Source: a bacterium (GTDB lineage Bacteria; Patescibacteriota; Minisyncoccia; Moranbacterales; UBA1568). Taken from it: a stretch of DNA of 64,000 nucleotides. Within the stretch, counting starts at the first letter, position 1, and every line of letters begins with the position of its first letter. Under the pieces are notes generated by a model. That model searched no databases. It was not told the origin of the DNA and saw only the letters and a list, made by a program, of their open reading frames with translations. The position numbers and the translations under genes are program-made. The DNA lies in NCBI GenBank assembly GCA_021821305.1, contig JAKACP010000001.1:404349-468348 (forward strand), in the 5' to 3' direction. Below, one piece after another: positions 9,353 through 45,099 of this stretch.

Positions 9353-11050
9353 ATGCTTACTGCCCGCAACATCTTCAAACGCTATGGCCCCGTGAAAGTC
9401 CTTCTCGGAGTCAGTTTTTCGATCGCGCGCGGGCAGAAGATAGCGCTCGTCGGTCCGAACGGGGTCGGCAAGTCGACACTGCTCCGCATCCTCGCCGGAA
9501 TCGAATCGGAAGACCGGGGCAAGATAGAGCGGGATAACGGGATCCGTATCGCGGCCCTTCCGCAGGAAATCGTTCCGGAATCGGAGGATGAGACGGTCTT
9601 CGAGACGCTCCGCGCCCTCTCGGGCATAGCCGAGCTCGAGGCGAAGATGGCCAAGCTCGAAGCCAAGCTCGATGACGAGAAGTCACTCGCCGCCTACGGC
9701 GAGGCTCGCGACCTGTATGAGCGTATGGGCGGATTTTCGTTTTCCCGAAAAGCCCGGCTCGCGCTCGACGGACTCGGACTGCGCCGGATCCCGCTCGACC
9801 GGCCCCTCTCGAAGATAAGCGGCGGGGAGCGGCGGCGGGTGGCGATCGCCGGCACCCTGCTCCGCGAGGCGGATCTGCTCCTTCTCGACGAACCGACGAA
9901 CGATCTCGATCTTCCGTCCATACTCTGGCTCGAATCCTTTCTCCGTGACAGCGCCGCCGCGGTGATCGTCGCTTCGCACGACCGGGCGTTCCTCGACGCG
10001 GTGGTCGGGAAAGTGCTCGAGATCGATTGGCACTTCCGTACGGGCAGGATGTGGACGGGAAACTACTCGACCTATTTCCGGGAGAAATCGGAGATGCTCC
10101 GCCGTGAACGCGAGGCGCATGAGCGGGCCGAGACGGAACGCGAGCGGCTCCGGGATACCGCGCTCGAAAAGAAGGAATGGGCGCGCATCGGCGGTGAGCA
10201 GGTGATGCCGGACCGGGACAAGATGTCCCAGGGGTATCACCGCGACCGCGCGGAGCGCAAGTTCGGCGCGGCCGCCAAGGCGCTCGAGAACCGCGCGGAC
10301 CAGGTGAAGCGCATCGCGCTCCACGCCGAACGCGACCCGCTCGAGATCTATTTCGAACCGGCCGAGGGAGAAGGCCGATCGATCGTCCTTTCCGCGGTGT
10401 CGGCCGGATACGGGGAAGCGTTCCATGTCGGACCCGTCGATATGGAGATCCCGTACGGTACGCGTGTCGGTATCTTCGGACGTAACGGCGCCGGCAAATC
10501 GACCCTTCTGAAACTGATCACGGGAGAACTCGATCCGATCGGGGGAACGGTCGTGCGCGAAGAGTCGGTCCGGTTCGGGTCATTGTCACAGGCGAACGAC
10601 ACGCTTCCCGCGGACAAGAGCGCGGTGCGATGGATCACCGAATCGACGCCGATCACCGAGGAAGCGGATGCGATCCGGTTCTTGGTCCGGTTCCTGCTCG
10701 ATGCGCCGTCGGTCACGTCACCCATGAGCGAACTCTCGCCGGGGGAGCGGATGCGTATCGCGCTCGCGTTCCTCATGGCTTCCCGGGTGAACGTGCTCGT
10801 GCTCGATGAGCCGACGAACCACCTCGATCTCGAGGCGGTGACCGCGCTCGAAACGGCGCTCGACCTCTACAAGGGCACGTTGCTTCTCGTCTCACACGAC
10901 CGCGCGTTTCTCTCGCGACTCACGTTTTCGCAGGTGTGGTCCGTCGAAGCGGGAGCGGTTTCCCGCGAGGAGGACTACGCATCCTATCTCGAACGGGCGA
11001 TGACGGAGGCGGAAAACGAGAAACGCGCATTCCGTCGGGTGTCTTTCTGA
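9353..11050 (+). CDS. ABC-F family ATPase (tandem ABC domains, no TMD; translation-factor type)
   Basis: Two Walker A motifs (GPNGVGKST and GRNGAGKST), two ABC signatures (LSGGERRRV and LSPGERMRI), and a charged inter-domain linker. 565 aa. Fits EttA/Uup-like ABC-F proteins. Confidence 0.9.
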   Translation: MLTARNIFKRYGPVKVLLGVSFSIARGQKIALVGPNGVGKSTLLRILAGIESEDRGKIERDNGIRIAALPQEIVPESEDETVFETLRALSGIAELEAKMAKLEAKLDDEKSLAAYGEARDLYERMGGFSFSRKARLALDGLGLRRIPLDRPLSKISGGERRRVAIAGTLLREADLLLLDEPTNDLDLPSILWLESFLRDSAAAVIVASHDRAFLDAVVGKVLEIDWHFRTGRMWTGNYSTYFREKSEMLRREREAHERAETERERLRDTALEKKEWARIGGEQVMPDRDKMSQGYHRDRAERKFGAAAKALENRADQVKRIALHAERDPLEIYFEPAEGEGRSIVLSAVSAGYGEAFHVGPVDMEIPYGTRVGIFGRNGAGKSTLLKLITGELDPIGGTVVREESVRFGSLSQANDTLPADKSAVRWITESTPITEEADAIRFLVRFLLDAPSVTSPMSELSPGERMRIALAFLMASRVNVLVLDEPTNHLDLEAVTALETALDLYKGTLLLVSHDRAFLSRLTFSQVWSVEAGAVSREEDYASYLERAMTEAENEKRAFRRVSF

Positions 11051-11470: not shown

Positions 11471-13174
11471 ATGAGACTTCAGGAAAAAATCCGCTGGCAG
11501 TTCGCGTGGGTGCTCGCCCTCGCGCTTTTTTCCGGCGCGATCGCCTATCCGCACGTCTTTTCCTTCATCCCGAAATTTCCCGCCGCGGAAACGATCGAGG
11601 AATCGCTCAAGATCAACCTCGGCCTCGATCTTCAGGGAGGCATACACCTCGAATACGCCGCCGATCTCTCGCAGGTTCCGGAGGGCAAGAAGGGGGAGGC
11701 GCTCGAGGCGGCACTCGCGGTCATCGAGCGGCGCGTGAACGCGTTCGGTGTCGGCGAATCCGTCGTACAGTCGGCAAAATCCGGTACCGAGGACCGCATC
11801 ATCGTCGAGCTTCCCGGCGTCAAGGATGTCGAGGAGGCGAAGTCGATGCTCAAGGAGACGCCGTTCCTCGAATTTCGCGAATCCCAGGACGAGGAATTGC
11901 AACGGGAATTCGACGTCGAGAATGAGGCTTCGAAACGAAAAGCCGCGGAGATCCTCGAGCGGACCAAGAAAGGCGAGGATTTCGCCGCGCTCGCGAAGGA
12001 GTTCAGCCAGGATCCGGGATCCAAGGACCAGGGCGGCGACCTCGATTTCGTGACTAAGGGAACGTTCGTCAACGAATTCGATGAAGTCATTTTCAAGGAT
12101 GATTTCCAGGCAGGAACGGTCCATCCGGATCTCGTCGAGTCGGCGTTCGGCTGGCATATCATAAAGAAACTCGAGGAGCGGGGCGAAGGCGAGGAAAAGG
12201 AGGTCCGTGCCGCGCACATCCTCTTCCCCAAGAGCACGCTCGACATGCTTCCGGATTCGGTCCGTTTCGCATCGACCGGACTTTCCGGCAAGAACCTCGA
12301 GGATGCCTTCGTCGATTATCAGGGGCAGGGATTCGGGGCGCCGCAGGTAGGACTCCAGTTCGACGCGGAGGGAGCCAAGCTCTTCGCGGAACTTACCAGG
12401 CGCAATCTCGGCAAGCCGATCGCCATATTCCTCGATGACGAGGTGATCAGCGCTCCGACCGTGCAGAGCGAGATCACCGACGGTCGGGCCGTCATCACCG
12501 GTAGTTTCACGCTCGAGGAAGTCAAACACCTCGTCGGGCGACTCAACGAGGGTGCGCTCCCGGTGCCGATCACGCTCGTGGGCCAGCAGTCGATCGACGC
12601 CTCGCTCGGCGAGGACGCCCTCCGGACGAGTCTCTTCGCCGGAGCGATCGGCCTCATCGCCGTGTCCATATATATGATCCTCTACTACCGTTTCCTCGGA
12701 TTCGGCGCGGTGTTCGCGCTCCTCATCTATTCCGCGATGCTGCTCGCGATCTTCCGGCTTTCCGGATTCTCGCCGTTCCCGATCACGCTCACGCTCTCGG
12801 GTATCGCCGGATTCATCCTCTCGATCGGTATCGCGGTCGACGCGAACGTGCTCATCTTCGAGCGCACCCGCGAAGAGCTCGCGTACGGGAAATCGGCGCG
12901 CAAATCGATCCAGGAAGGATTCCGGCGCGCATGGCCGAGCATCCGCGACGGACACGTCTCGACGCTCATCACGACCTTCATCCTCATCCTCATGGGGACG
13001 GGATTCGTCAAGGGATTCGCGGTGATCCTCTCGCTCGGCGTGCTCCTCTCGCTCTTCACGGCGGTCGTCCTGGTCCGGGTGTGGCTGCGGTTCGTCGTCG
13101 GGGACTGGGCGGAAAAGCGTCCGTGGCTCCTCGTGGCGCCGAAGAAGCTCCTGGAAGACGAGACAACGAAATAA
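11471..13174 (+). CDS. secD: Protein translocase subunit SecD with an inserted parvulin-type PPIase domain
   Basis: N-terminal SecD periplasmic region (LGLDLQGGIHLEY). The C-terminal 6-TM SecD core (LGVLLSLFTAVVLVRVW etc.) is complete. Between them lies ...AAEILERTKKGEDFAALAKEFSQDPGSKDQGGDLDFVTKGTFVNEFDEVIFKDDFQAGTVHPDLVESAFGWHIIKKL..., a clear PpiC/parvulin rotamase signature. A second HIL-type start (VRAAHILF) follows. Confidence 0.85.
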   Translation: MRLQEKIRWQFAWVLALALFSGAIAYPHVFSFIPKFPAAETIEESLKINLGLDLQGGIHLEYAADLSQVPEGKKGEALEAALAVIERRVNAFGVGESVVQSAKSGTEDRIIVELPGVKDVEEAKSMLKETPFLEFRESQDEELQREFDVENEASKRKAAEILERTKKGEDFAALAKEFSQDPGSKDQGGDLDFVTKGTFVNEFDEVIFKDDFQAGTVHPDLVESAFGWHIIKKLEERGEGEEKEVRAAHILFPKSTLDMLPDSVRFASTGLSGKNLEDAFVDYQGQGFGAPQVGLQFDAEGAKLFAELTRRNLGKPIAIFLDDEVISAPTVQSEITDGRAVITGSFTLEEVKHLVGRLNEGALPVPITLVGQQSIDASLGEDALRTSLFAGAIGLIAVSIYMILYYRFLGFGAVFALLIYSAMLLAIFRLSGFSPFPITLTLSGIAGFILSIGIAVDANVLIFERTREELAYGKSARKSIQEGFRRAWPSIRDGHVSTLITTFILILMGTGFVKGFAVILSLGVLLSLFTAVVLVRVWLRFVVGDWAEKRPWLLVAPKKLLEDETTK

Positions 13175-13177
13175 CCT

Positions 13178-14077
13178 ATGCTAGAGATCATCCAGAAAAG
13201 AAAATTCGCCTATCTGTTCTCCGGGATACTCCTCGGTTTGTCGGTGCTCGCCATCTCCGCCTGGGGGCTCCGTCTGGGATTGGATTTCAAGGGCGGCACG
13301 CTCCTCGAGGTCCGTTTTTCCGTCGATCCGGCGCCGCAGACGCAGGAAATCCAGGCCGCTCTCGAACCGCTCGGACTGCAGAGTCTTTCCGTGCAGGCGA
13401 CGGAGGGGAACGGCGCGCTCATACGTTACCTCGCCTCCGATGAGGCGACGAACGACCGTGCGATGGAGGAGCTGGAGAAGATGGACAGCGAGTTGGAACT
13501 CCTGCGGACGGACTTCATCGGGGCATCGGTGTCCGAACAGATGAAGACGAGCGCGTTTTGGGGGATACTGTTTTCCATACTCGGTATCGCGGCGTACATC
13601 GCGCTCGCGTTCCGCCGGGTGTCGCGGCCGATCTCGTCGTGGGAATACGGCTGGGGGGCGGTCATCGCGCTCGCGCACGATATCGTCGTCACCGTCGGCG
13701 CGTTCGCGGTCTTCGGGAGATTCATGGGCGTCGAGGTCGGCATCCCGTTCGTGGCCGCGCTCCTCACCATTCTCGGCTATTCCGTCAACGACAGCATCGT
13801 CGTCTACGACCGCATCCGCGAGAACCTGCTCCGTTCCAAGACCAAGTCCGATTTCGAGGGACTCGTGAACCGCTCGGTGAACGAGACGATGTCGCGTTCG
13901 ATCAACACCTCGATGACCGTCATGATCGTGCTCGCGTCGATCGCGCTCTTCGGCGGGGAGAGTATACGGTGGTTCGCGATTGCGCTCCTCATCGGTGTCG
14001 GCTTCGGAACCTACTCCTCGGTCTTCGTCGCCTCCGCGCTCCTCGTGACGCGGTATAAGATGAAGACGGGGAAATAG
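13178..14077 (+). CDS. secF: Protein translocase subunit SecF
   Basis: Follows 3 nt after secD. LDFKGGTLLEVRF plus a 6-TM core carrying the conserved YSVNDSIVVYDRIRE motif. Confidence 0.9.
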   Translation: MLEIIQKRKFAYLFSGILLGLSVLAISAWGLRLGLDFKGGTLLEVRFSVDPAPQTQEIQAALEPLGLQSLSVQATEGNGALIRYLASDEATNDRAMEELEKMDSELELLRTDFIGASVSEQMKTSAFWGILFSILGIAAYIALAFRRVSRPISSWEYGWGAVIALAHDIVVTVGAFAVFGRFMGVEVGIPFVAALLTILGYSVNDSIVVYDRIRENLLRSKTKSDFEGLVNRSVNETMSRSINTSMTVMIVLASIALFGGESIRWFAIALLIGVGFGTYSSVFVASALLVTRYKMKTGK

Positions 14078-14167: not shown

Positions 14168-14479
14168 ATGAAATGGAATCCGTTTTCGAAACAATCGTCC
14201 GGCGCGCAGGAGGATGAGCCGACCCTCGAGGAGAAGATGGCGGCGATGCCGGGAGCGCCCAAGCTCGAGGATATGGGCATGATGGAACGCTTCGCGATGA
14301 AGCGGTTCATGAAGATGAGCCCGGAAGACCAGAAGAAGATGATCGAAAAATCCATGACGCCGAAGAATATCGAGAAGCACAAGGACGAAATTGTCGCGTC
14401 GCTCGAAGAGATGAAGAAGAACCGCATGATCTCCGACGACCAATACCGCCTCATGAAGCGGAAGTTCGGTATCAAATAG
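14168..14479 (+). CDS. Hypothetical small charged helical protein (103 aa, Met/Lys-rich)
   Basis: Clean ORF with no motif recognised. Translation: MKWNPFSKQSSGAQEDEPTLEEKMAAM...RLMKRKFGIK. Confidence 0.4.
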   Translation: MKWNPFSKQSSGAQEDEPTLEEKMAAMPGAPKLEDMGMMERFAMKRFMKMSPEDQKKMIEKSMTPKNIEKHKDEIVASLEEMKKNRMISDDQYRLMKRKFGIK

Positions 14480-19485: not shown

Positions 19486-19922
19486 TTGCATTTTTCCGTT
19501 CCCGAAACAGATCGGGTCATCGCGTCCGCTGCAAAGCGGATGAGGAAAGTCCGGACTCCCGCCCGGCGCAAGCCGGTGCAGAAGGGTAATAGGTAACTCC
19601 TATACGCCGCGAGGCGCGAGGTGCGAACAGAAACGGCTTCTTCCGAAAGGAAGGAGACAGCCTGTACCCCTGACCCCGATGAAAATCGGGGAACACTCGT
19701 CAGACCTCAGGCTGTTCTTGGCTCATAAAGGGGTATGAGAAGTCCAAGGTGAAACGGCTAAATCCTTACCCGGGTGCAAGGTCGTGTCCACATCGTTTTT
19801 TCCTCGAGAAAAAGCGGTAGGGAAGAACCGCGCGAACCGGATGGCGACATCCGGTCCAGATAAATGATGACAGAGAAACAGAATCCGGCTTACGAGTCTG
19901 TTTCGGGAGCGGAAGGATGCAA
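19486..19922 (+). ncRNA. rnpB: RNase P RNA (bacterial type A-like)
   Basis: P4 5' strand GGAAAGUCCGG (19536-46) pairs with ACAGAAUCCGGCUUA (19879-92). GGUGAAACGG sits in the P10-P12 region (19749). P1 is a 26-bp helix, ttgcatttttccgttcccgaaacaga / tctgtttcgggagcggaaggatgcaa, including several G.U pairs. Confidence 0.8.
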
Positions 19923-35191: not shown

Positions 35192-37084
35192 ATGTTCGGA
35201 AAAATACCACAAGATATCGGGAGTGAGATCGACGACGCGGTTCTGACCGTGACCGAAAAGGACGCGGCCAAACTGGAGTGGCCCCTCGATCGGCGATGGG
35301 CCTCGACGTATTTTCTCGTGGGAGCGGCGATCGTCCTACTTCTCTTCGGGAGAGCGGTCTATCTCAACGTGTTCCAAGGCGAGAAATACCGCGCGATCGC
35401 GGAACGCAACAGCGTCCGTCTCGTGCCTCTCCCGACGCCGAGAGGCATCGTGTATGACCGGTTCGGCGTCCCACTCGTCCGCAACCTTCCGAGTATCGAC
35501 GCGGTGCTCGTCCCGTTCGACGCACCGAAGGACACCGCCGGCCGGGAGGAGCTGAAGAGCGCGCTCGAGAGCACGCTTTCCATCGCGCCCGAATCGGTCG
35601 ACGCCGTCTTCGCGCTCGCCGTGAAGAATCCGCTCACGCCGGTACTCCTCAAGAAGAAGCTGTCCCAGGAGGAAGTGATCGCGATCCTGTCCCAGGAGGA
35701 GCGTTTCCCCGGGATCAATCTCTTCAAGTCGGCGTACCGGGAATACATGGACAGCGTCATGTTCTCGCATGTCCTCGGGTATGAGGGGAGGATCAGCGAG
35801 GGAGAATACGCCGCAAGCGCCGAGTCGGAGTATCTGCCCACGGATTCCGTCGGCAAGCAGGGGATCGAGAAGAGCTATGAGCGGGAGCTCCGCGGCGAGC
35901 GCGGATTCGAACGGGTGGAAGTCGACGCGTTCGGCCGACCGAAGAAGGTGCTCGGCACGGTCCAGTCGAAGGCGGGGAGCGATCTCCTTCTCTCCATCGA
36001 CGCCGAATTGCAGAAGCGGTCGTTCGACGCGCTCGCGTCGTTCCTGGAATCCAAGGGCCTCGAACGCGGCGCGGTGATCGCGCTCGATCCGCGCGACGGC
36101 GCGGTGCGCGCGCTCGTATCGATTCCGAGTTTCGACAACAACCTGTTCGCGGAGGGAATCTCTTCCGACGCGTACCGATCGCTCATCGAGGACGAGTCCA
36201 AGCCGCTTTTCAACCGGGCCATCGCCGGAGAGTATCCGCCCGGATCCACGTTCAAGCCGGTCATCGCGTCGGCCGCGCTCTCGGAACGCCTCATAAGCGA
36301 GGACACGCGCATCGAGTCCCGCGGCGGCATAGCGGTCGGCAGCTTTTTCTTCGGTGACTGGAAGGCGCACGGATTCACCGATCTGCGCGGCGCGCTCGCG
36401 GTGTCGAGCGACGTCTACTTCTACTCTATCGGCGGCGGATACGGGGGTATTCCGGGCCTCGGGATAGACCGGATGAAATCATACGCCGAGCGGTTCGGCT
36501 ACGGGAGTCCGTCCGGCATCGATATTCCCGGCGAGGGGGACGGATTTCTCCCCGATGGGGAATGGAAGAAGGAGCGCTTCGGCGAACGCTGGTACATAGG
36601 CGACGACTACCATGCGTCTATCGGGCAGGGTTTCGTCACGGCCACCCCGCTTCAGATCGCGAACTCGGTGGCGGCGATCGCCAACGGCGGCACGGTCTAC
36701 GAGCCGCATATCGTATCGCAGGTGCGCACCGTCGACGGCAAGATATCGGTGAAGGAGCCGAAGGCGATACGATCGGTCGGAATCGACCCGTATATCCTGC
36801 AGGTGGTCCGCGAGGGCATGCGCGAAGCGGTCACCGAGGGGACCGCGCAGTCGCTCGCGAGCCTGCCCGTTCCCGTCGCCGGAAAAACGGGAACCGCGCA
36901 GTTCGGGACGGGCAAGAAGACGCACGGATGGTTCGCTTCCTTCGCGCCCTATGACGAACCGGAGCTCGCCATGATCGTGCTCGTCGAGAACCAGGAAACG
37001 GATACGTACAACGCGGTTCCGGTGACCAAGGAAATCTATGAGTGGTATTTCCGGGAGCGGTCAAAACCGAGGACGGATCCCTGA
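35192..37084 (+). CDS. mrdA: Penicillin-binding protein 2 (peptidoglycan D,D-transpeptidase, elongasome)
   Basis: N-terminal TM plus dimerisation domain. Transpeptidase motifs STFKP (SxxK), SSD (SxN variant) and KTGTAQ. 630 aa. Confidence 0.9.
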   Translation: MFGKIPQDIGSEIDDAVLTVTEKDAAKLEWPLDRRWASTYFLVGAAIVLLLFGRAVYLNVFQGEKYRAIAERNSVRLVPLPTPRGIVYDRFGVPLVRNLPSIDAVLVPFDAPKDTAGREELKSALESTLSIAPESVDAVFALAVKNPLTPVLLKKKLSQEEVIAILSQEERFPGINLFKSAYREYMDSVMFSHVLGYEGRISEGEYAASAESEYLPTDSVGKQGIEKSYERELRGERGFERVEVDAFGRPKKVLGTVQSKAGSDLLLSIDAELQKRSFDALASFLESKGLERGAVIALDPRDGAVRALVSIPSFDNNLFAEGISSDAYRSLIEDESKPLFNRAIAGEYPPGSTFKPVIASAALSERLISEDTRIESRGGIAVGSFFFGDWKAHGFTDLRGALAVSSDVYFYSIGGGYGGIPGLGIDRMKSYAERFGYGSPSGIDIPGEGDGFLPDGEWKKERFGERWYIGDDYHASIGQGFVTATPLQIANSVAAIANGGTVYEPHIVSQVRTVDGKISVKEPKAIRSVGIDPYILQVVREGMREAVTEGTAQSLASLPVPVAGKTGTAQFGTGKKTHGWFASFAPYDEPELAMIVLVENQETDTYNAVPVTKEIYEWYFRERSKPRTDP

Positions 37085-37143: not shown

Positions 37144-37797
37144 TCAATATCCGACGTAGTACCGTATCTGGGCGCTTTCCTTCAGTCCGGATATCCACAG
37201 CTGGGCTTCCCCCTGGAGTTTCTGCTGTTTGAGGTCCTCTCCGATCTGTCTCCTGAATTCCTCCGTCGGTATCCCTTCCGGCGGAGTGACCCCGGAGTTC
37301 TTCATGTAGGCGTCTATTTCGGCATCTGTCGGGACGGCTTTTTCGGCGAGCAGTTTCTCGATCCTTTTCTGGATGGCGATCTGTTCACGGAGCGTTTCAC
37401 GGGTCATGTCCTGTGCCGCGAGCGCTTCGTCGAGCGTTCCGCCTCCCTGCCCGCCGGAGATCTGCCCTTCGATCTTCCGTATCTCGCCGTCGATCTCGTC
37501 TTCCGTCACGGTGACGTTCCGCCGGTCGAGTTCGGCCTCGATGAGCTTCCTGTCGATCATGGATTCGAGTGCTTCTTTCCCGCTCTGTCGTTCGAGCTCC
37601 CGTATGACGGCGAGCCGGCTGACGGGCGAGCCGTTCACCGTTGCCGCCACCAGGAATCCTTCGGTGAAGAGTATGGCCGCGAGCACGAAAAGCGCCGCGA
37701 TCCCGATGGCGACAAAGACCGGTTTCCGCCCGATCCGACGCGATGACTTCTTTTCTTCCTGATCGGTGTCCCGTTTCGGTTCGTTCGTGTCGTTCAT
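37144..37797 (-). CDS. SurA N-terminal-domain periplasmic chaperone-like protein (no PPIase domain)
   Basis: N-terminal TM (VFVAIGIAALFVLAAILF) then a helical domain AATVNGSPVSRLAVIRELERQSG...LIEAELDRRNVTVTEDEID...REQIAIQKRIEKLL, typical of the SurA_N/PpiD N-domain. The protein ends without a parvulin domain. The overlapping + ORF at 37042-37746 is low-complexity and rejected. Confidence 0.55.
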   Translation of the reverse strand: MNDTNEPKRDTDQEEKKSSRRIGRKPVFVAIGIAALFVLAAILFTEGFLVAATVNGSPVSRLAVIRELERQSGKEALESMIDRKLIEAELDRRNVTVTEDEIDGEIRKIEGQISGGQGGGTLDEALAAQDMTRETLREQIAIQKRIEKLLAEKAVPTDAEIDAYMKNSGVTPPEGIPTEEFRRQIGEDLKQQKLQGEAQLWISGLKESAQIRYYVGY

Positions 37798-37849: not shown

Positions 37850-38401
37850 CTACTTCGTTCCTATCTTGCACATGGACGGGTTTTCTATCTGTCGGGCCGC
37901 GGCATATATGGTCGCGGCGAGGAGCAGCGTTCCGATGACACCGAACTCGCCGCCATCGAGCGGAAGGAGCGCTACCGCGCCCGATGCACCGAGAAGCGAC
38001 AGCGTCCCCGGAAGCAGGAACGATCCGCAAGCCGCGCATCCGACTCCCAGGGCGCCGCTTCCTACTCCGAGGAACCCTGTCAGCATTCCGCCCTGACGGG
38101 TTTTTCCGGTCCGACTCCGGAGGACGTAGGCCGTCATGGCGATATAGATTCCGAACAGGATGGCGATCGCGACCGTGTAGGAAGCCGAGAACGGGGTGAA
38201 GTTCGTCGCGATCGATCCCGAGAGACTCGCGAGCAGGCCGATCTTTTCCGAAACGGGGATGTCAGAGGATCCGATCACGCTCGTGATGAGGGAGATATTG
38301 GGAAGCCACGTGGCGAGGAGGAACATGGCCGCGCTCACGCCCGAGGCAAGCACGACGAAGCGGGGATCCCGGAAGACTTTTTTCAATGCGGGAAGAATCA
38401 T
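37850..38401 (-). CDS. Polytopic membrane protein with an intramembrane CxxC (GVGCAACGSF); putative thiol-disulfide partner of the adjacent DsbA-like protein
   Basis: Start chosen at Met77 of the ORF-track frame (plus-strand cat 38399-38401), 10 nt downstream of the DsbA-like stop. The upstream part of the track ORF overlaps that gene. 4-5 TMs. Not a good match to VKOR or DsbB by motif, so family unassigned. Confidence 0.45.
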   Translation of the reverse strand: MILPALKKVFRDPRFVVLASGVSAAMFLLATWLPNISLITSVIGSSDIPVSEKIGLLASLSGSIATNFTPFSASYTVAIAILFGIYIAMTAYVLRSRTGKTRQGGMLTGFLGVGSGALGVGCAACGSFLLPGTLSLLGASGAVALLPLDGGEFGVIGTLLLAATIYAAARQIENPSMCKIGTK

Positions 38402-38411
38402 ACGGTTCGCG

Positions 38412-39203
38412 TTACTTTTCTTCCGAGGCGAGTCCGATGAGCCGCTCGATCGCTGTAGCGGTCTGTGCTCCCGAAAGCGGATACTTCTTTCCGTCGGCTC
38501 CCATGACGATGCTCCACGGCGTCCCGTTGCCTCCCGTGGCGACCGCGTCCTGCACATGGCCCTCGATTTTTTCCGCGTATTTTCCGCTCGCGAGACATTC
38601 ATCGAATTTCCCGGTATCAAGCCCGACATATTTTGCGATCTTCGGAAGTTCGGCCGGGTCGAGTCCGTCGTTCGCCGGCGTCACCTCCATGAGGCGGTCG
38701 AGGTACGCCCAAAATGCGTCGTTCCCGCCCAGTTCGGCGGCGCATTCCGTGGCTTCGGCTTCCTTGCGCGCCTTTTGATGTAGCTGGTCTATAGGGAAAT
38801 GCCGGTACACCCATGCGACTTTTCCGTCCTCGGCGTACTTCTCCGTCACCTGTTTCATGGTGAGATGGAACTTCTTGCAGAACGGACACTCGGTGTCCGA
38901 ATATTCGACGATCTTGATGGGTGCGTTCGGATTGCCGCGGATATGGTCCGTCTCCGAGACGGGGGCCATCCGATCGAGCGATGTACCGTCTTCTCCGACA
39001 AGGTCCCGCTCCGCGGCCGCTTCCGTGTCGCCCGCGGTCGTCGGCGCGTTCTTTCCGGACGAATAGACGATCGCTCCGGCGATGAGGATGCCCGAGGCGA
39101 CGATGGCCAGAGGGGACATCAGGTTCTGTCGGTGCGACGCCGCCGGTCGGCTCCGCTCCGCTTCGTGATTTCGGTCCTGATCATTCATAGGTTTTTCTTT
39201 CAT
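38412..39203 (-). CDS. DsbA-like thioredoxin-fold protein, membrane-anchored
   Basis: N-terminal TM (LAIVASGILIAGAIVY). Active site CPFC (YSDTECPFCKKFH). A C-terminal cis-Pro region (GTPWSIV). Internal alternative starts are possible. Confidence 0.8.
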   Translation of the reverse strand: MKEKPMNDQDRNHEAERSRPAASHRQNLMSPLAIVASGILIAGAIVYSSGKNAPTTAGDTEAAAERDLVGEDGTSLDRMAPVSETDHIRGNPNAPIKIVEYSDTECPFCKKFHLTMKQVTEKYAEDGKVAWVYRHFPIDQLHQKARKEAEATECAAELGGNDAFWAYLDRLMEVTPANDGLDPAELPKIAKYVGLDTGKFDECLASGKYAEKIEGHVQDAVATGGNGTPWSIVMGADGKKYPLSGAQTATAIERLIGLASEEK

Positions 39204-42167: not shown

Positions 42168-42241
42168 GGTCGCATAGTTCAGTTGGTTAGAACGTTCGAT
42201 TCACATTCGAAAGGTCCCTGGTTCGAGTCCAGGTGCGACCA
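42168..42241 (+). tRNA. tRNA-Val (anticodon CAC)
   Basis: Manual fold: acceptor GGUCGCA/UGCGACC, U8, D-stem GUUC/GAAC, anticodon stem UUCGA/UCGAA with loop UUCACAU (CAC), T-arm CCUGG-UUCGAGU-CCAGG. No encoded CCA. Upstream promoter TGGACA-17-TAAGAT (42117-42146). Confidence 0.85.
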
Positions 42242-45026: not shown

Positions 45027-45099
45027 GGGTGCGTAGCTCAGTTGGTAGAGCAGTGGCCTTTTAAGCCAACGGTCGAGGGTTCGAGCCCCCCCGCACCCA
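45027..45099 (+). tRNA. tRNA-Lys (anticodon UUU)
   Basis: Manual fold: acceptor GGGUGCG/CGCACCC, D-stem GCUC/GAGC, anticodon loop CUUUUAA (UUU), T-loop UUCGAGC. One A-C mismatch in the T-stem and G27-A43. No encoded CCA. A terminator follows at 45106-45135. Confidence 0.75.

What the first reader, a model, noticed from the sequence alone, without database searches (positions are those of the whole stretch)
11471..13174. SecD carries an inserted parvulin (PpiC-type) PPIase domain, while a SurA/PpiD-like N-domain protein nearby lacks one
Between the SecD periplasmic head and its 6-TM core lies an unmistakable parvulin rotamase signature: DFAALAKEFSQDPGSKDQGGDLDFV...FDEVIF...AFGWHIIKKL, followed by a second HIL-type motif.

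PpiD and PrsA foldases with parvulin domains are known to dock on the Sec translocon. A covalent SecD-parvulin fusion would be a Rosetta-stone confirmation of that link.

Complementarily, the gene at 37144-37797 (-) encodes a membrane-anchored SurA_N/PpiD-like chaperone domain that ends without any parvulin domain, as if the PPIase moiety had been relocated into SecD. I am not aware of this SecD architecture being described.
Basis: partly seen in the sequence, partly recalled or inferred. Interest (0 to 1): 0.6.

Follow-up and report, generated by a model that had tools for sequence, protein, structure and literature searches.

The report
SecD with a built-in parvulin foldase
The protein-export subunit SecD of this candidate-phyla-radiation bacterium carries a conserved, apparently active and circularly rearranged prolyl-isomerase (parvulin) domain in its outward-facing part, a covalent version of the loose translocon-chaperone contacts known in model bacteria.

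Summary
The 567-aa SecD (11471-13174, +) has a parvulin domain at aa 140-262 (Pfam Rotamase_3, E 1.2e-22).

It is not an assembly artefact. The identical protein occurs on at least 8 contigs from independent samples. All 120 closest homologues (Moranbacteria) share the architecture. So do 91 of the 150 best 50%-identity cluster representatives, as single, tandem or larger inserts and in fused SecDF. Named genomes include Uhr-, Parcu-, Gracili- and Peri/Peregrinibacteria.

New here: the domain appears circularly permuted. The canonical first strand, with the first catalytic His, follows the last strand (GWHIIKK-loop-VRAAHILF). The D181/S224/H229/H249 set is kept in 117 of 121 close homologues. 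The other four lost both His together.

The 217-aa protein (37144-37797, -) is a membrane-anchored SurA/PrsA-type chaperone module with no parvulin. That the PPIase "moved" from it into SecD is untested.

Most likely function: a foldase or holdase tethered at the translocon exit (inferred). No paper describing this was found. Verdict: new variant of a known kind, interest about 0.6.

The parts
11471..13174 (+). secD ORF, 567 aa plus stop: TM1, P1 base, parvulin, P1 head, TM2-6
   Evidence: ORF. Pfam and NCBIfam (TIGR01129 375.6 bits against cutoff 244.4). PDB sequence match to T. thermophilus SecDF 3aqp, E 5e-69. Foldseek top hits are SecDF 5xan, 5xap, 5yhf and 3aqp. The identical protein is on at least 8 independent contigs.
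11495..11563 (+). TM1 of SecD (aa ~9-31)
   Evidence: The AF2 model has a helix at 3-25. The segment WQFAWVLALALFSGAIAYP is hydrophobic.
11609..11887 (+). P1 base, N-terminal part (aa 47-139; Sec_GG motif and SecD_1st)
   Evidence: Pfam Sec_GG at 47-65 and SecD_1st at 79-139, E 5.4e-18. Aligns to TtSecDF residues 28-118.
11888..12256 (+). Inserted parvulin (PpiC/PrsA-type PPIase) domain, aa 140-262, circularly permuted. Order: alpha1, alpha2, beta2, alpha4, beta3, beta4, hairpin, beta1'. Putative active-site residues D181, S224, H229 and H249; proline-pocket residues L191, F199 and F203.
   Evidence: Pfam Rotamase_3 E 1.2e-22, matching only profile positions 31-114 of 116. Best PDB matches are PrsA 6vj6 and SurA P2. 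AF2 pLDDT is 87-92 over aa 150-250. In unfused relatives, residues equivalent to 136 and 265 are only about 6 aa apart. Residue conservation.
12197..12232 (+). beta1' strand KEVRAAHILFPK (aa 243-254): the parvulin's first strand, carrying the first His of the dual-His motif, displaced to follow beta4
   Evidence: AF2 predicts strand 244-253 directly after strand 227-237. The strand aligns to beta1 of SurA parvulin 2, TEVHARHILL. Moving it in front of the core extends Pfam Rotamase coverage to positions 1-94 of 97 and raises the scores. A PSSM built from canonical beta1 strands scores it 14.7 bits, the best of 93,310 12-mers in the six-frame window, and 0 of 500 shuffles reach that. H229 and H249 are kept together in 117 of 121 sequences and lost together in the other 4.
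12257..12580 (+). P1 head subdomain (aa 263-370)
   Evidence: Pfam SecDF_P1_head at 269-365, E 4.3e-30. Aligns to TtSecDF from residue 160 onward.
12581..13105 (+). TM2-TM6 core of SecD (aa 371-545), including D457, which aligns with TtSecDF D340
   Evidence: Pfam SecD_SecF_C at 372-532. Alignment to 3aqp. AF2 helices at 378-433, 442-471, 476-508 and 511-542. D457 is invariant in alignment A1.
13178..14077 (+). secF, 299 aa, starting 4 nt after secD
   Evidence: TIGR00966 276.7 bits against cutoff 160; Pfam SecD_SecF_C E 1.1e-58. The same gene order is seen on the independent contigs.
37144..37797 (-). 217-aa membrane-anchored SurA/PrsA-type N+C chaperone module without a parvulin. It is a possible but unproven partner.
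   Evidence: Pfam SurA_N_3 E 3.8e-10, no Rotamase hit. AF2 pLDDT 87, with TM helix 25-44, an N-terminal hairpin, and a long C-terminal helix 177-207 followed by strand 210-212. Foldseek top hits are SurA-like chaperones: Cj1289/PEB4 3rgc, the SurA core 8pzv_F (TMt 0.59), YacD, PrsA and PpiD. None of the 120 listed homologues has a Rotamase domain.

Best explanation
This is a genuine secD gene of a Moranbacteria-type (CPR/Patescibacteria) bacterium. A PrsA/SurA-like parvulin domain of about 123 aa is inserted at the junction between the P1 base and the mobile P1 head.

The domain is circularly permuted. It starts at helix alpha1 and ends with the strand that is normally first (beta1, carrying the first His), which now forms a hairpin with beta4. 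It keeps the parvulin Asp/His/His/Ser-Thr network and the hydrophobic proline pocket, and it is under purifying selection.

The most likely function is inferred, not shown. The domain would be a peptidyl-prolyl isomerase or holdase held permanently at the extracytoplasmic exit of SecYEG, on the element of SecDF thought to grip and pull the emerging chain. Secreted proteins would then meet a foldase as they leave the channel. In E. coli, B. subtilis and Mycoplasma this coupling is achieved by non-covalent docking of PpiD, SurA, or PrsA-like proteins. The separate parvulin-less N+C chaperone protein may supply the holdase half.
For: Architecture (shown):
- Pfam and NCBIfam hits.
- PDB sequence matches to SecDF and to PrsA/SurA parvulins.
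- The AF2 model has a confident insert, pLDDT 87-92.
- The Foldseek top hits for the whole model are SecDF.

Not an artefact (shown):
- The identical protein is on at least 8 contigs from independent samples.
- All 120 best homologues have Rotamase plus SecD domains.
- 91 of the 150 best cluster representatives carry one or two parvulins between base and head. Unfused relatives have only 6-100 aa there.
- Fused loci occur in genomes named Uhrbacteria, Parcubacteria, Gracilibacteria, Peribacteria and Peregrinibacteria.

Permutation (strongly indicated):
- Pfam profiles match only from position 14/31 onward.
- The strand after beta4 aligns to beta1 of SurA P2.
- An un-permuted construct gains full N-terminal profile coverage, +4 bits (Rotamase) and +7 bits (Rotamase_3) over the native-order insert.
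- The beta1 PSSM ranks the strand first of 93,310 windows.
- AF2 predicts strand 244-253 directly after strand 227-237.

Active-site integrity:
- D181 is invariant.
- The D-[S/T]-H-H combination is present in 117 of 121 sequences. The four exceptions replaced both His by hydrophobic residues together.
- From my own knowledge, this is the coupling reported for Pin1 H59/H157.
- Similar concerted losses are seen in more distant single-insert representatives.
- Column conservation is 0.70 for the insert core and 0.78 for beta1', against 0.82-0.85 for the SecD base, head and TM regions.

Functional context from papers:
- AlphaFold models place the SurA parvulin domains on the SecDF P1 head (PMC9987972).
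- PpiD-YfgM docks on SecYEG (PMC9643414).
- PrsA-like Mdp/Mpn444 proteins form a complex with Sec and crosslink to SecD in Mycoplasma.
Against: - There is no biochemical evidence for PPIase activity.
- The model has pTM 0.43, so the position of the parvulin relative to head, base and SecYEG is not defined.
- I could not inspect coordinates, so beta4-beta1' pairing rests on secondary structure, homology and covariation.
- One offline control did not show a significant gain from un-permuting (z 1.8; 13 of 200 shuffles reached the score), because the alignment skipped beta1.
- In tandem-insert relatives the first parvulin is usually degenerate. That shows non-catalytic parvulins are tolerated at this site.
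- The coupled His losses among close homologues may be only one to three evolutionary events.
- I could not check whether the genome has another parvulin. Only this 64-kb window was scanned, and it has none.
Confidence: 0.7

Rival explanations
1. The inserted parvulin is catalytically silent. It would serve only as a substrate-binding or holdase surface, or as a structural strut that modulates the swing of the P1 head, like the inactive parvulin domains of PpiD and SurA P1.
For: Tandem-insert relatives keep a first parvulin that has lost the beta4 His and often the Asp, so non-catalytic parvulins persist at this site. Four close homologues replaced both His by hydrophobic residues and still keep the domain. 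The permuted topology is untested for activity.
Against: In the window protein and 117 of 121 close homologues the D/[S,T]/H/H set is intact, and the L191/F199/F203 pocket is conserved. The closest solved relatives are PrsA and SurA P2, which from my own knowledge are the active types.
Confidence: 0.2
2. Split PrsA. An ancestral membrane-anchored PrsA-like foldase lost its parvulin to SecD. The 217-aa N+C chaperone now docks on SecD and rebuilds a complete foldase at the translocon.
For: The domain contents are complementary: an N+C module without a parvulin and a parvulin without an N+C module. The loop at aa 168-176 lies where PrsA carries its parvulin, since NCBIfam PrsA profile positions 3-131 match aa 24-157. 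The SecD parvulin is most similar to PrsA. The chaperone gene sits in a DsbA-containing cluster, which points to a role in extracytoplasmic folding.
Against: The genes are 24 kb apart and not co-transcribed. There is no interaction or co-evolution evidence. Every detectable homologue of the N+C protein already lacks a parvulin, so no intermediate is seen. The genome-wide parvulin count and the phyletic correlation were not testable here.
Confidence: 0.3
3. The strand VRAAHILF is only a vestige of a deleted second parvulin, left over from a tandem ancestor. It would play no structural role, leaving a three-stranded, truncated parvulin.
For: Tandem relatives have a canonical second parvulin that starts with a very similar strand.
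Against: The strand is more conserved (0.78) than the parvulin core (0.70). H249 is kept or lost strictly together with H229. AF2 predicts it as a confident strand adjacent in sequence to beta4. From my own knowledge, a parvulin sheet without beta1 would lack its central strand.
Confidence: 0.07
4. The fusion is an assembly or gene-calling artefact that joins a separate parvulin gene to secD.
For: None found.
Against: The ORF is uninterrupted. The identical protein is assembled independently at least 8 times. All 120 closest homologues and many distant ones have the same architecture. The insert sits inside the P1 domain rather than at a terminus.
Confidence: 0.01

Closest known systems
Canonical SecD/SecDF (T. 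thermophilus SecDF, PDB 3AQP, 5XAN, 5YHF; E. coli SecD)
   Same: It has TM1, a P1 base, a P1 head and a TM2-6 core with the conserved Asp (D457, aligned to Tt D340). An adjacent secF follows. It passes the TIGR01129 cutoff.
   Different: It carries a 123-aa parvulin domain at the base-to-head junction. Unfused relatives have as few as 6 residues there.
PrsA (Bacillus and Listeria lipoprotein foldase; PDB 6VJ6, 4WO7, 5HTF)
   Same: It is the closest parvulin sequence type, with the SxDPGS...GGDL...FG[YW]HII motifs and Asp in place of the Pin1 Cys. It acts on the outer face of the membrane.
   Different: In PrsA a canonical-order parvulin is inserted into its own N+C chaperone domain, and the protein is a separate lipoprotein. 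Here the parvulin is permuted, sits inside SecD, and has no N+C domain in the same chain.
SurA (E. coli; tandem parvulins P1 and P2) and its reported contact with SecDF
   Same: The end of the insert aligns across the SurA P1-to-P2 junction. AlphaFold models in PMC9987972 place the SurA parvulin domains on the SecDF P1 head. That is the contact made covalent here.
   Different: SurA is soluble, periplasmic and specific to diderms. It has canonical parvulin topology, and its interaction with SecDF is transient.
PpiD-YfgM at SecYEG (E. coli)
   Same: It is a membrane-anchored SurA_N-plus-parvulin chaperone positioned at the translocon exit (PMC9643414). The 217-aa protein here shares its N-terminal anchor and SurA_N-like fold.
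   Different: The PpiD parvulin is inactive (from my own knowledge) and lies in the same chain as the chaperone domain. PpiD docks non-covalently on SecY, not within SecD.
Mycoplasma pneumoniae Sec-translocon 'dome' of PrsA-like lipoproteins (Mdp/Mpn444, Mpn436)
   Same: A genome-reduced bacterium couples parvulin-type foldases near-obligately to the Sec machinery, with crosslinks to SecD.
   Different: The proteins are separate, very large lipoproteins forming a dome. There is no covalent fusion and no permutation.

Membership tests
SecD (TIGR01129; Pfam SecD_1st, SecDF_P1_head, SecD_SecF_C) | Score above the curated family cutoffs | tested here: met
   TIGR01129 375.6 bits against cutoff 244.4. 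SecD_1st 64.6, P1_head 104.4 and SecD_SecF_C 47.3 bits are all above their cutoffs.
SecD (TIGR01129; Pfam SecD_1st, SecDF_P1_head, SecD_SecF_C) | TM1, a large extracytoplasmic P1 domain, then five TM helices with the conserved TM4 Asp | tested here: met
   AF2 helices and strands. D457 aligns to TtSecDF D340 and is invariant in alignment A1. Foldseek top hits are SecDF.
SecD (TIGR01129; Pfam SecD_1st, SecDF_P1_head, SecD_SecF_C) | A partner secF gene | tested here: met
   secF at 13178-14077, TIGR00966 276.7 bits against cutoff 160. The same order is seen on independent contigs.
SecD (TIGR01129; Pfam SecD_1st, SecDF_P1_head, SecD_SecF_C) | PMF-dependent stimulation of protein export | not testable with these tools
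   This needs genetics or biochemistry.
Parvulin PPIase domain (Pfam PF00639 and PF13616) | Profile score above the gathering cutoff | tested here: met
   Rotamase_3 81.1 bits against 22.5; Rotamase 71.3 against 21.7.
Parvulin PPIase domain (Pfam PF00639 and PF13616) | Canonical element order: beta1, alpha1-3, beta2, alpha4, beta3, beta4 | tested here: not met
   Profile coverage starts at position 14/31. The beta1 homologue lies after beta4. All the elements are present, but in circularly permuted order.
Parvulin PPIase domain (Pfam PF00639 and PF13616) | Active-site network (Pin1 C113/H59/H157/T152 equivalents) and the hydrophobic proline pocket | tested here: met
   D181, H249, H229 and S224, plus L191, F199 and F203. 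The D-[ST]-H-H set is present in 117 of 121 homologues. The residue equivalences come from my own knowledge of Pin1 and Par14.
Parvulin PPIase domain (Pfam PF00639 and PF13616) | Measured cis/trans prolyl isomerase activity | not testable with these tools
   This needs an enzyme assay.
PrsA/SurA/PpiD-type foldases (N+C chaperone domain with parvulin(s) inserted in one chain) | A SurA_N-type N+C chaperone domain in the same polypeptide as the parvulin | tested here: not met
   SecD has no SurA_N hit. The 217-aa protein has SurA_N_3 but no Rotamase. Neither protein is a member on its own.
PrsA/SurA/PpiD-type foldases (N+C chaperone domain with parvulin(s) inserted in one chain) | For the 217-aa protein: the N+C chaperone fold (N-terminal strands and helices clasped by a long C-terminal helix and a final strand) | tested here: met
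   AF2 pLDDT 87. Foldseek hits to Cj1289/PEB4, the SurA core (TMt 0.57-0.59), YacD, PrsA and PpiD.

The most novel reading that the evidence does not exclude
CPR bacteria have built a one-piece 'pull-and-fold' machine. A circularly permuted but catalytically active parvulin rides on the PMF-driven hinge of the SecD P1 domain, so each head swing presents the emerging chain to the isomerase. The separately anchored, parvulin-less PrsA-like N+C chaperone docks on it, reconstituting a split foldase at the translocon. The tandem-insert relatives would then contain a canonical parvulin nested inside the permuted one. As far as my searches show, neither the permutation nor the nesting has been described for this fold.
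Probability: 0.25. Interest if true: 0.75.

Novelty: new variant of a known kind. Interest (0 to 1): 0.6.

Why it matters
How SecDF works, and how extracytoplasmic chaperones are recruited to the translocon exit, are still argued from low-resolution maps, crosslinks and AlphaFold models.

A conserved covalent fusion of a parvulin to the SecD P1 domain across many CPR lineages is independent evolutionary evidence that a parvulin foldase belongs next to the P1 head. It also offers a compact, single-chain system for testing translocation-coupled folding.

It adds what appears to be the first natural circular permutation of the parvulin fold. It also shows how genome-reduced bacteria consolidate envelope-biogenesis functions.

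Practically, these proteins are annotated simply as 'SecD', so the feature is invisible in current annotation.

Tried and rejected
- **Assembly chimera.** Rejected.
- **Motif as a generic feature of the SecD head.** Rejected. Unfused relatives have only 6-100 aa between base and head, with no parvulin signal, and TtSecDF does not align over the insert.
- **Offline un-permutation control.** I used an HMM built from the canonical second parvulin of tandem relatives. The result was inconclusive: 76.4 bits against shuffles at 75.0 +/- 0.8, with 13 of 200 reaching it. The local alignment skipped beta1 because of a long beta1-alpha1 loop in that HMM. I replaced it with the Pfam test and a 12-mer PSSM scan.
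- **Genome-contig scan.** It was flooded by free parvulins (PpiD-like and others).
- **Fused loci labelled Gammaproteobacteria or Binatia.** I do not count them as evidence for spread outside CPR. Their SecD is 48-54% identical to Uhrbacteria and Parcubacteria proteins.
- **The listing of cluster members.** It returned few organism names.
- **Sequence search of the 217-aa protein against the PDB.** It gave only marginal PrsA hits. The fold search was needed.
- **NJ tree of SecD without the insert.** It is crude and has no support values. I use it only to say that fused and unfused forms are interleaved.
Full report
**1. The observation**

- Pfam finds, in order:
  - Sec_GG at aa 47-65;
  - SecD_1st at 79-139;
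  - Rotamase_3 and Rotamase at 149-235 (E 1.2e-22 and 1.4e-19, both far above the gathering cutoffs);
  - SecDF_P1_head at 269-365;
  - SecD_SecF_C at 372-532.
- NCBIfam TIGR01129 (secD) scores 375.6 against a cutoff of 244.4.
- The parvulin part is most like PrsA-type isomerases.
- secF follows 4 nt downstream, at 13178-14077.
The parvulin, however, lies between the N-terminal part of the P1 base and the P1 head, not between the head and the TM core.

**2. The insertion point**

- Against T. thermophilus SecDF (3AQP), query residues 43-138 align to Tt 28-118, and residues 271-557 align to Tt 160-440.
- In the closest unfused SecD relatives, the residues equivalent to window positions 136 and 265 are only about 6 aa apart. 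The base-to-head gap in unfused proteins ranges from 6 to about 100 aa.
- The insert is therefore aa ~140-262 (nt 11888-12256). It is tethered by a 2-residue link on the N side and a link of about 10 residues on the C side.
- The AF2 model has mean pLDDT 76.8 and pTM 0.43. The insert is predicted with pLDDT 87-92, but the low pTM means the relative placement of the domains is not reliable.
- Foldseek against the PDB returns SecDF structures first.
- D457 aligns with TtSecDF D340 and is invariant among homologues. From my own knowledge, D340 is the TM4 proton-pathway Asp.

**3. Not an artefact, and not unique to this genome**

- The identical 567-aa protein is encoded on at least 8 contigs from independent samples, with the same neighbours (ABC-F ATPase, secD, secF, small ORF, tyrS). 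The samples include ENA ERZ534008, two Logan runs and NCBI GCA_021835755.1.
- All 120 best homologues (65-92% identity) carry the same Pfam combination. Those that are named are Candidatus Moranbacteria/Moraniibacteriota.
- A whole-library search with the P1 region found 293 clusters (50% identity) at E <= 1e-30.
- Of the best 150 representatives, 91 carry a parvulin between base and head:
  - single inserts, with a base-to-head gap of 123-185 aa;
  - tandem inserts, 228-267 aa;
  - larger inserts, 295-474 aa;
  - fused SecDF proteins of about 1015-1099 aa.
- A scan of GTDB species genomes recovered fused loci titled Uhrbacteria, Parcubacteria, 'Patescibacteria group', Gracilibacteria, Peribacteria and Peregrinibacteria.
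- Four fused loci are labelled Gammaproteobacteria or Binatia. Their proteins are 48-54% identical to Uhrbacteria and Parcubacteria SecD, so I treat those labels as doubtful.
- Unfused SecD also exists within Patescibacteria.
- In a crude NJ tree, fused and unfused forms are interleaved (at least 9 parsimony changes among 75 sequences), while the window-type single-insert proteins form one clade.

**4. The parvulin appears to be circularly permuted**

*What is missing at the N-terminus, and what follows beta4.* The Pfam profiles match only from position 14 (Rotamase) or 31 (Rotamase_3). The N-terminal beta1 strand, which carries the first His of the dual-His motif, is therefore absent from its usual place. 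Directly after the last strand (GWHIIKKLEER, aa 227-237) comes a short loop and then KEVRAAHILFPK (aa 243-254).

*Evidence that this second strand is the displaced beta1:*
- phmmer aligns it to beta1 of SurA parvulin 2 (TEVHARHILLKPS), across the SurA P1-to-P2 junction.
- AF2 predicts strand 244-253 with pLDDT of about 89, right after strand 227-237.
- Placing aa 241-257 in front of the core extends Pfam Rotamase coverage to positions 1-94 of 97. Scores rise from 74.1 to 78.4 bits (Rotamase) and from 86.2 to 93.4 bits (Rotamase_3).
- A PSSM built from the canonical beta1 strands of 35 relatives scores the segment 14.7 bits. That is the best of all 93,310 12-mers in the six-frame translation of the window, and 0 of 500 shuffles of SecD reach it.

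*One control was inconclusive.* An offline test with a different HMM did not align beta1 at all, so it neither supports nor contradicts the result.

*Geometry.* From my own knowledge of the fold, beta1 and beta4 are adjacent antiparallel strands that carry the two histidines. A beta4-to-beta1 hairpin is therefore geometrically simple. I found no paper on a circularly permuted parvulin.

**5. Is the domain likely to be active?**

- By alignment with Pin1 and Par14 (equivalences from my own knowledge), D181, H249, H229 and S224 correspond to Pin1 C113, H59, H157 and T152. L191, F199 and F203 correspond to the proline pocket.
- D181 is invariant.
- Among 121 close homologues, 117 have D-[S/T]-H-H. 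The other four replaced both histidines by hydrophobic residues (I/I, F/V, F/F). No sequence lost only one.
- Similar concerted changes occur in distant single-insert representatives: Y/Y in P0277, F/P in P0245 and G/R in P0366.
- This coupling is what would be expected if H249 packs against H229, as H59 does against H157 in Pin1.
- Column conservation is 0.70 for the core and 0.78 for beta1'. The flanking linker is 0.54, and the SecD base, head and TM regions are 0.82-0.85.
- In tandem-insert relatives:
  - the first core usually lacks the His;
  - the middle strand and the second core always keep it, and Pfam reads these two as a complete canonical parvulin (positions 1-97 of 97);
  - a further beta1-like strand follows, usually without His.
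- My best guess is that a canonical parvulin is nested in the hairpin of a permuted one. I could not test this.

**6. The second gene**

- The ORF at 37144-37797 (-) encodes 217 aa with a TM helix at 25-44. It matches SurA_N_3 (E 3.8e-10) and has no Rotamase hit.
- The AF2 model (pLDDT 87) shows an N-terminal hairpin, a helical body, a long C-terminal helix (177-207) and a final strand.
- Foldseek hits are SurA-like chaperones: Cj1289/PEB4, the SurA N+C core (TMt 0.57-0.59), YacD, PrsA and PpiD-YfgM.
- None of the 120 listed homologues has a parvulin.
- It is therefore a PrsA/SurA-type chaperone module without the PPIase. The loop at 168-176 lies roughly where PrsA carries its parvulin.
- The gene lies directly downstream of a DsbA-like thioredoxin and a Cys-containing membrane ORF. 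That arrangement recurs in one related genome but not in a more distant one. This fits a role in extracytoplasmic folding.
- No other parvulin is encoded in the 64-kb window. The rest of the genome could not be examined.

**7. Mechanism**

*Shown:* a conserved, selected, PrsA-like parvulin is part of the extracytoplasmic P1 domain of SecD, at the base-head hinge.

*Inferred:* it acts on chains emerging from SecYEG, as an isomerase or holdase, next to the P1 head. From my own knowledge of the Tsukazaki and Furukawa models, the P1 head is thought to bind and pull substrates.

*Published context makes this plausible:*
- SurA binds the holo-translocon, and AlphaFold places its parvulin domains on the SecDF P1 head (PMC9987972).
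- PpiD-YfgM sits at SecYEG (PMC9643414).
- In Mycoplasma pneumoniae, PrsA-like lipoproteins form a near-obligate complex with the Sec translocon and crosslink to SecD.

*Not shown:* whether the 217-aa chaperone cooperates physically with the SecD parvulin.

**8. Comparison and novelty**

- The protein is a bona fide SecD.
- The insert is a bona fide parvulin by sequence and residues, but it fails the canonical-topology criterion.
- It is not a PrsA, SurA or PpiD, because it has no N+C domain in the same chain.
- The functional link (parvulin foldases at the Sec exit) is known.
- The covalent SecD-parvulin architecture, its breadth in CPR and the permutation were not found in the searchable literature. 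The proteins are in public databases, annotated only as 'SecD'.
- I rate it a new variant of a known kind, with interest about 0.6.

Noticed in passing
window 37850-39203 (-): A DsbA-like thioredoxin (38412-39203; Thioredoxin_4 E 5.8e-24, CPFC motif) and a Cys-containing polytopic membrane ORF (37850-38629; no Pfam hit; 'GVGCAACGS') lie directly upstream of the parvulin-less chaperone gene, on the same strand. The two ORFs overlap as listed, so the true start of the membrane ORF is probably internal. A dsbA, small ORF, dsbA, SurA_N_3 order recurs in a related genome (L086) but not in a more distant one (L085). This may be an extracytoplasmic folding cluster with a DsbB substitute.
   Followed up: partly
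window 14168-14479 (+): A 103-aa Lys/Glu/Met-rich ORF between secF and tyrS has no Pfam hit. It is also called as a gene at the same position on an independent contig (L081).
   Followed up: no
L001, L002, L003, L011 (genome contigs): These GTDB-representative MAGs are titled Gammaproteobacteria or Candidatus Binatia. They carry tandem-parvulin SecD genes 48-54% identical to Uhrbacteria and Parcubacteria SecD, and 66% identical to each other for L001 and L002. The taxonomic labels are probably wrong, or the contigs are mis-binned.
   Followed up: partly
relatives P0247, P0259, P0276, P0310 and others (not in the window): The SecD relatives carry two parvulin units, or larger inserts of up to about 470 aa between P1 base and head, and some are fused SecDF proteins. 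The first unit is usually degenerate and the second is canonical. An extra beta1-like strand follows the second unit, which suggests a parvulin nested inside a permuted parvulin.
   Followed up: partly
window 19504-19908 (+); 42168-42241 (+); 45027-45099 (+): Bacterial class A RNase P RNA (117 bits) and two tRNA genes. These are ordinary features.
   Followed up: no
window 35192-37084 (+) and 9353-11050 (+): A class B penicillin-binding protein (PBP_dimer plus Transpeptidase) converges on the chaperone gene, so this CPR organism makes peptidoglycan. An ABC-F type double ATPase lies upstream of secD.
   Followed up: no
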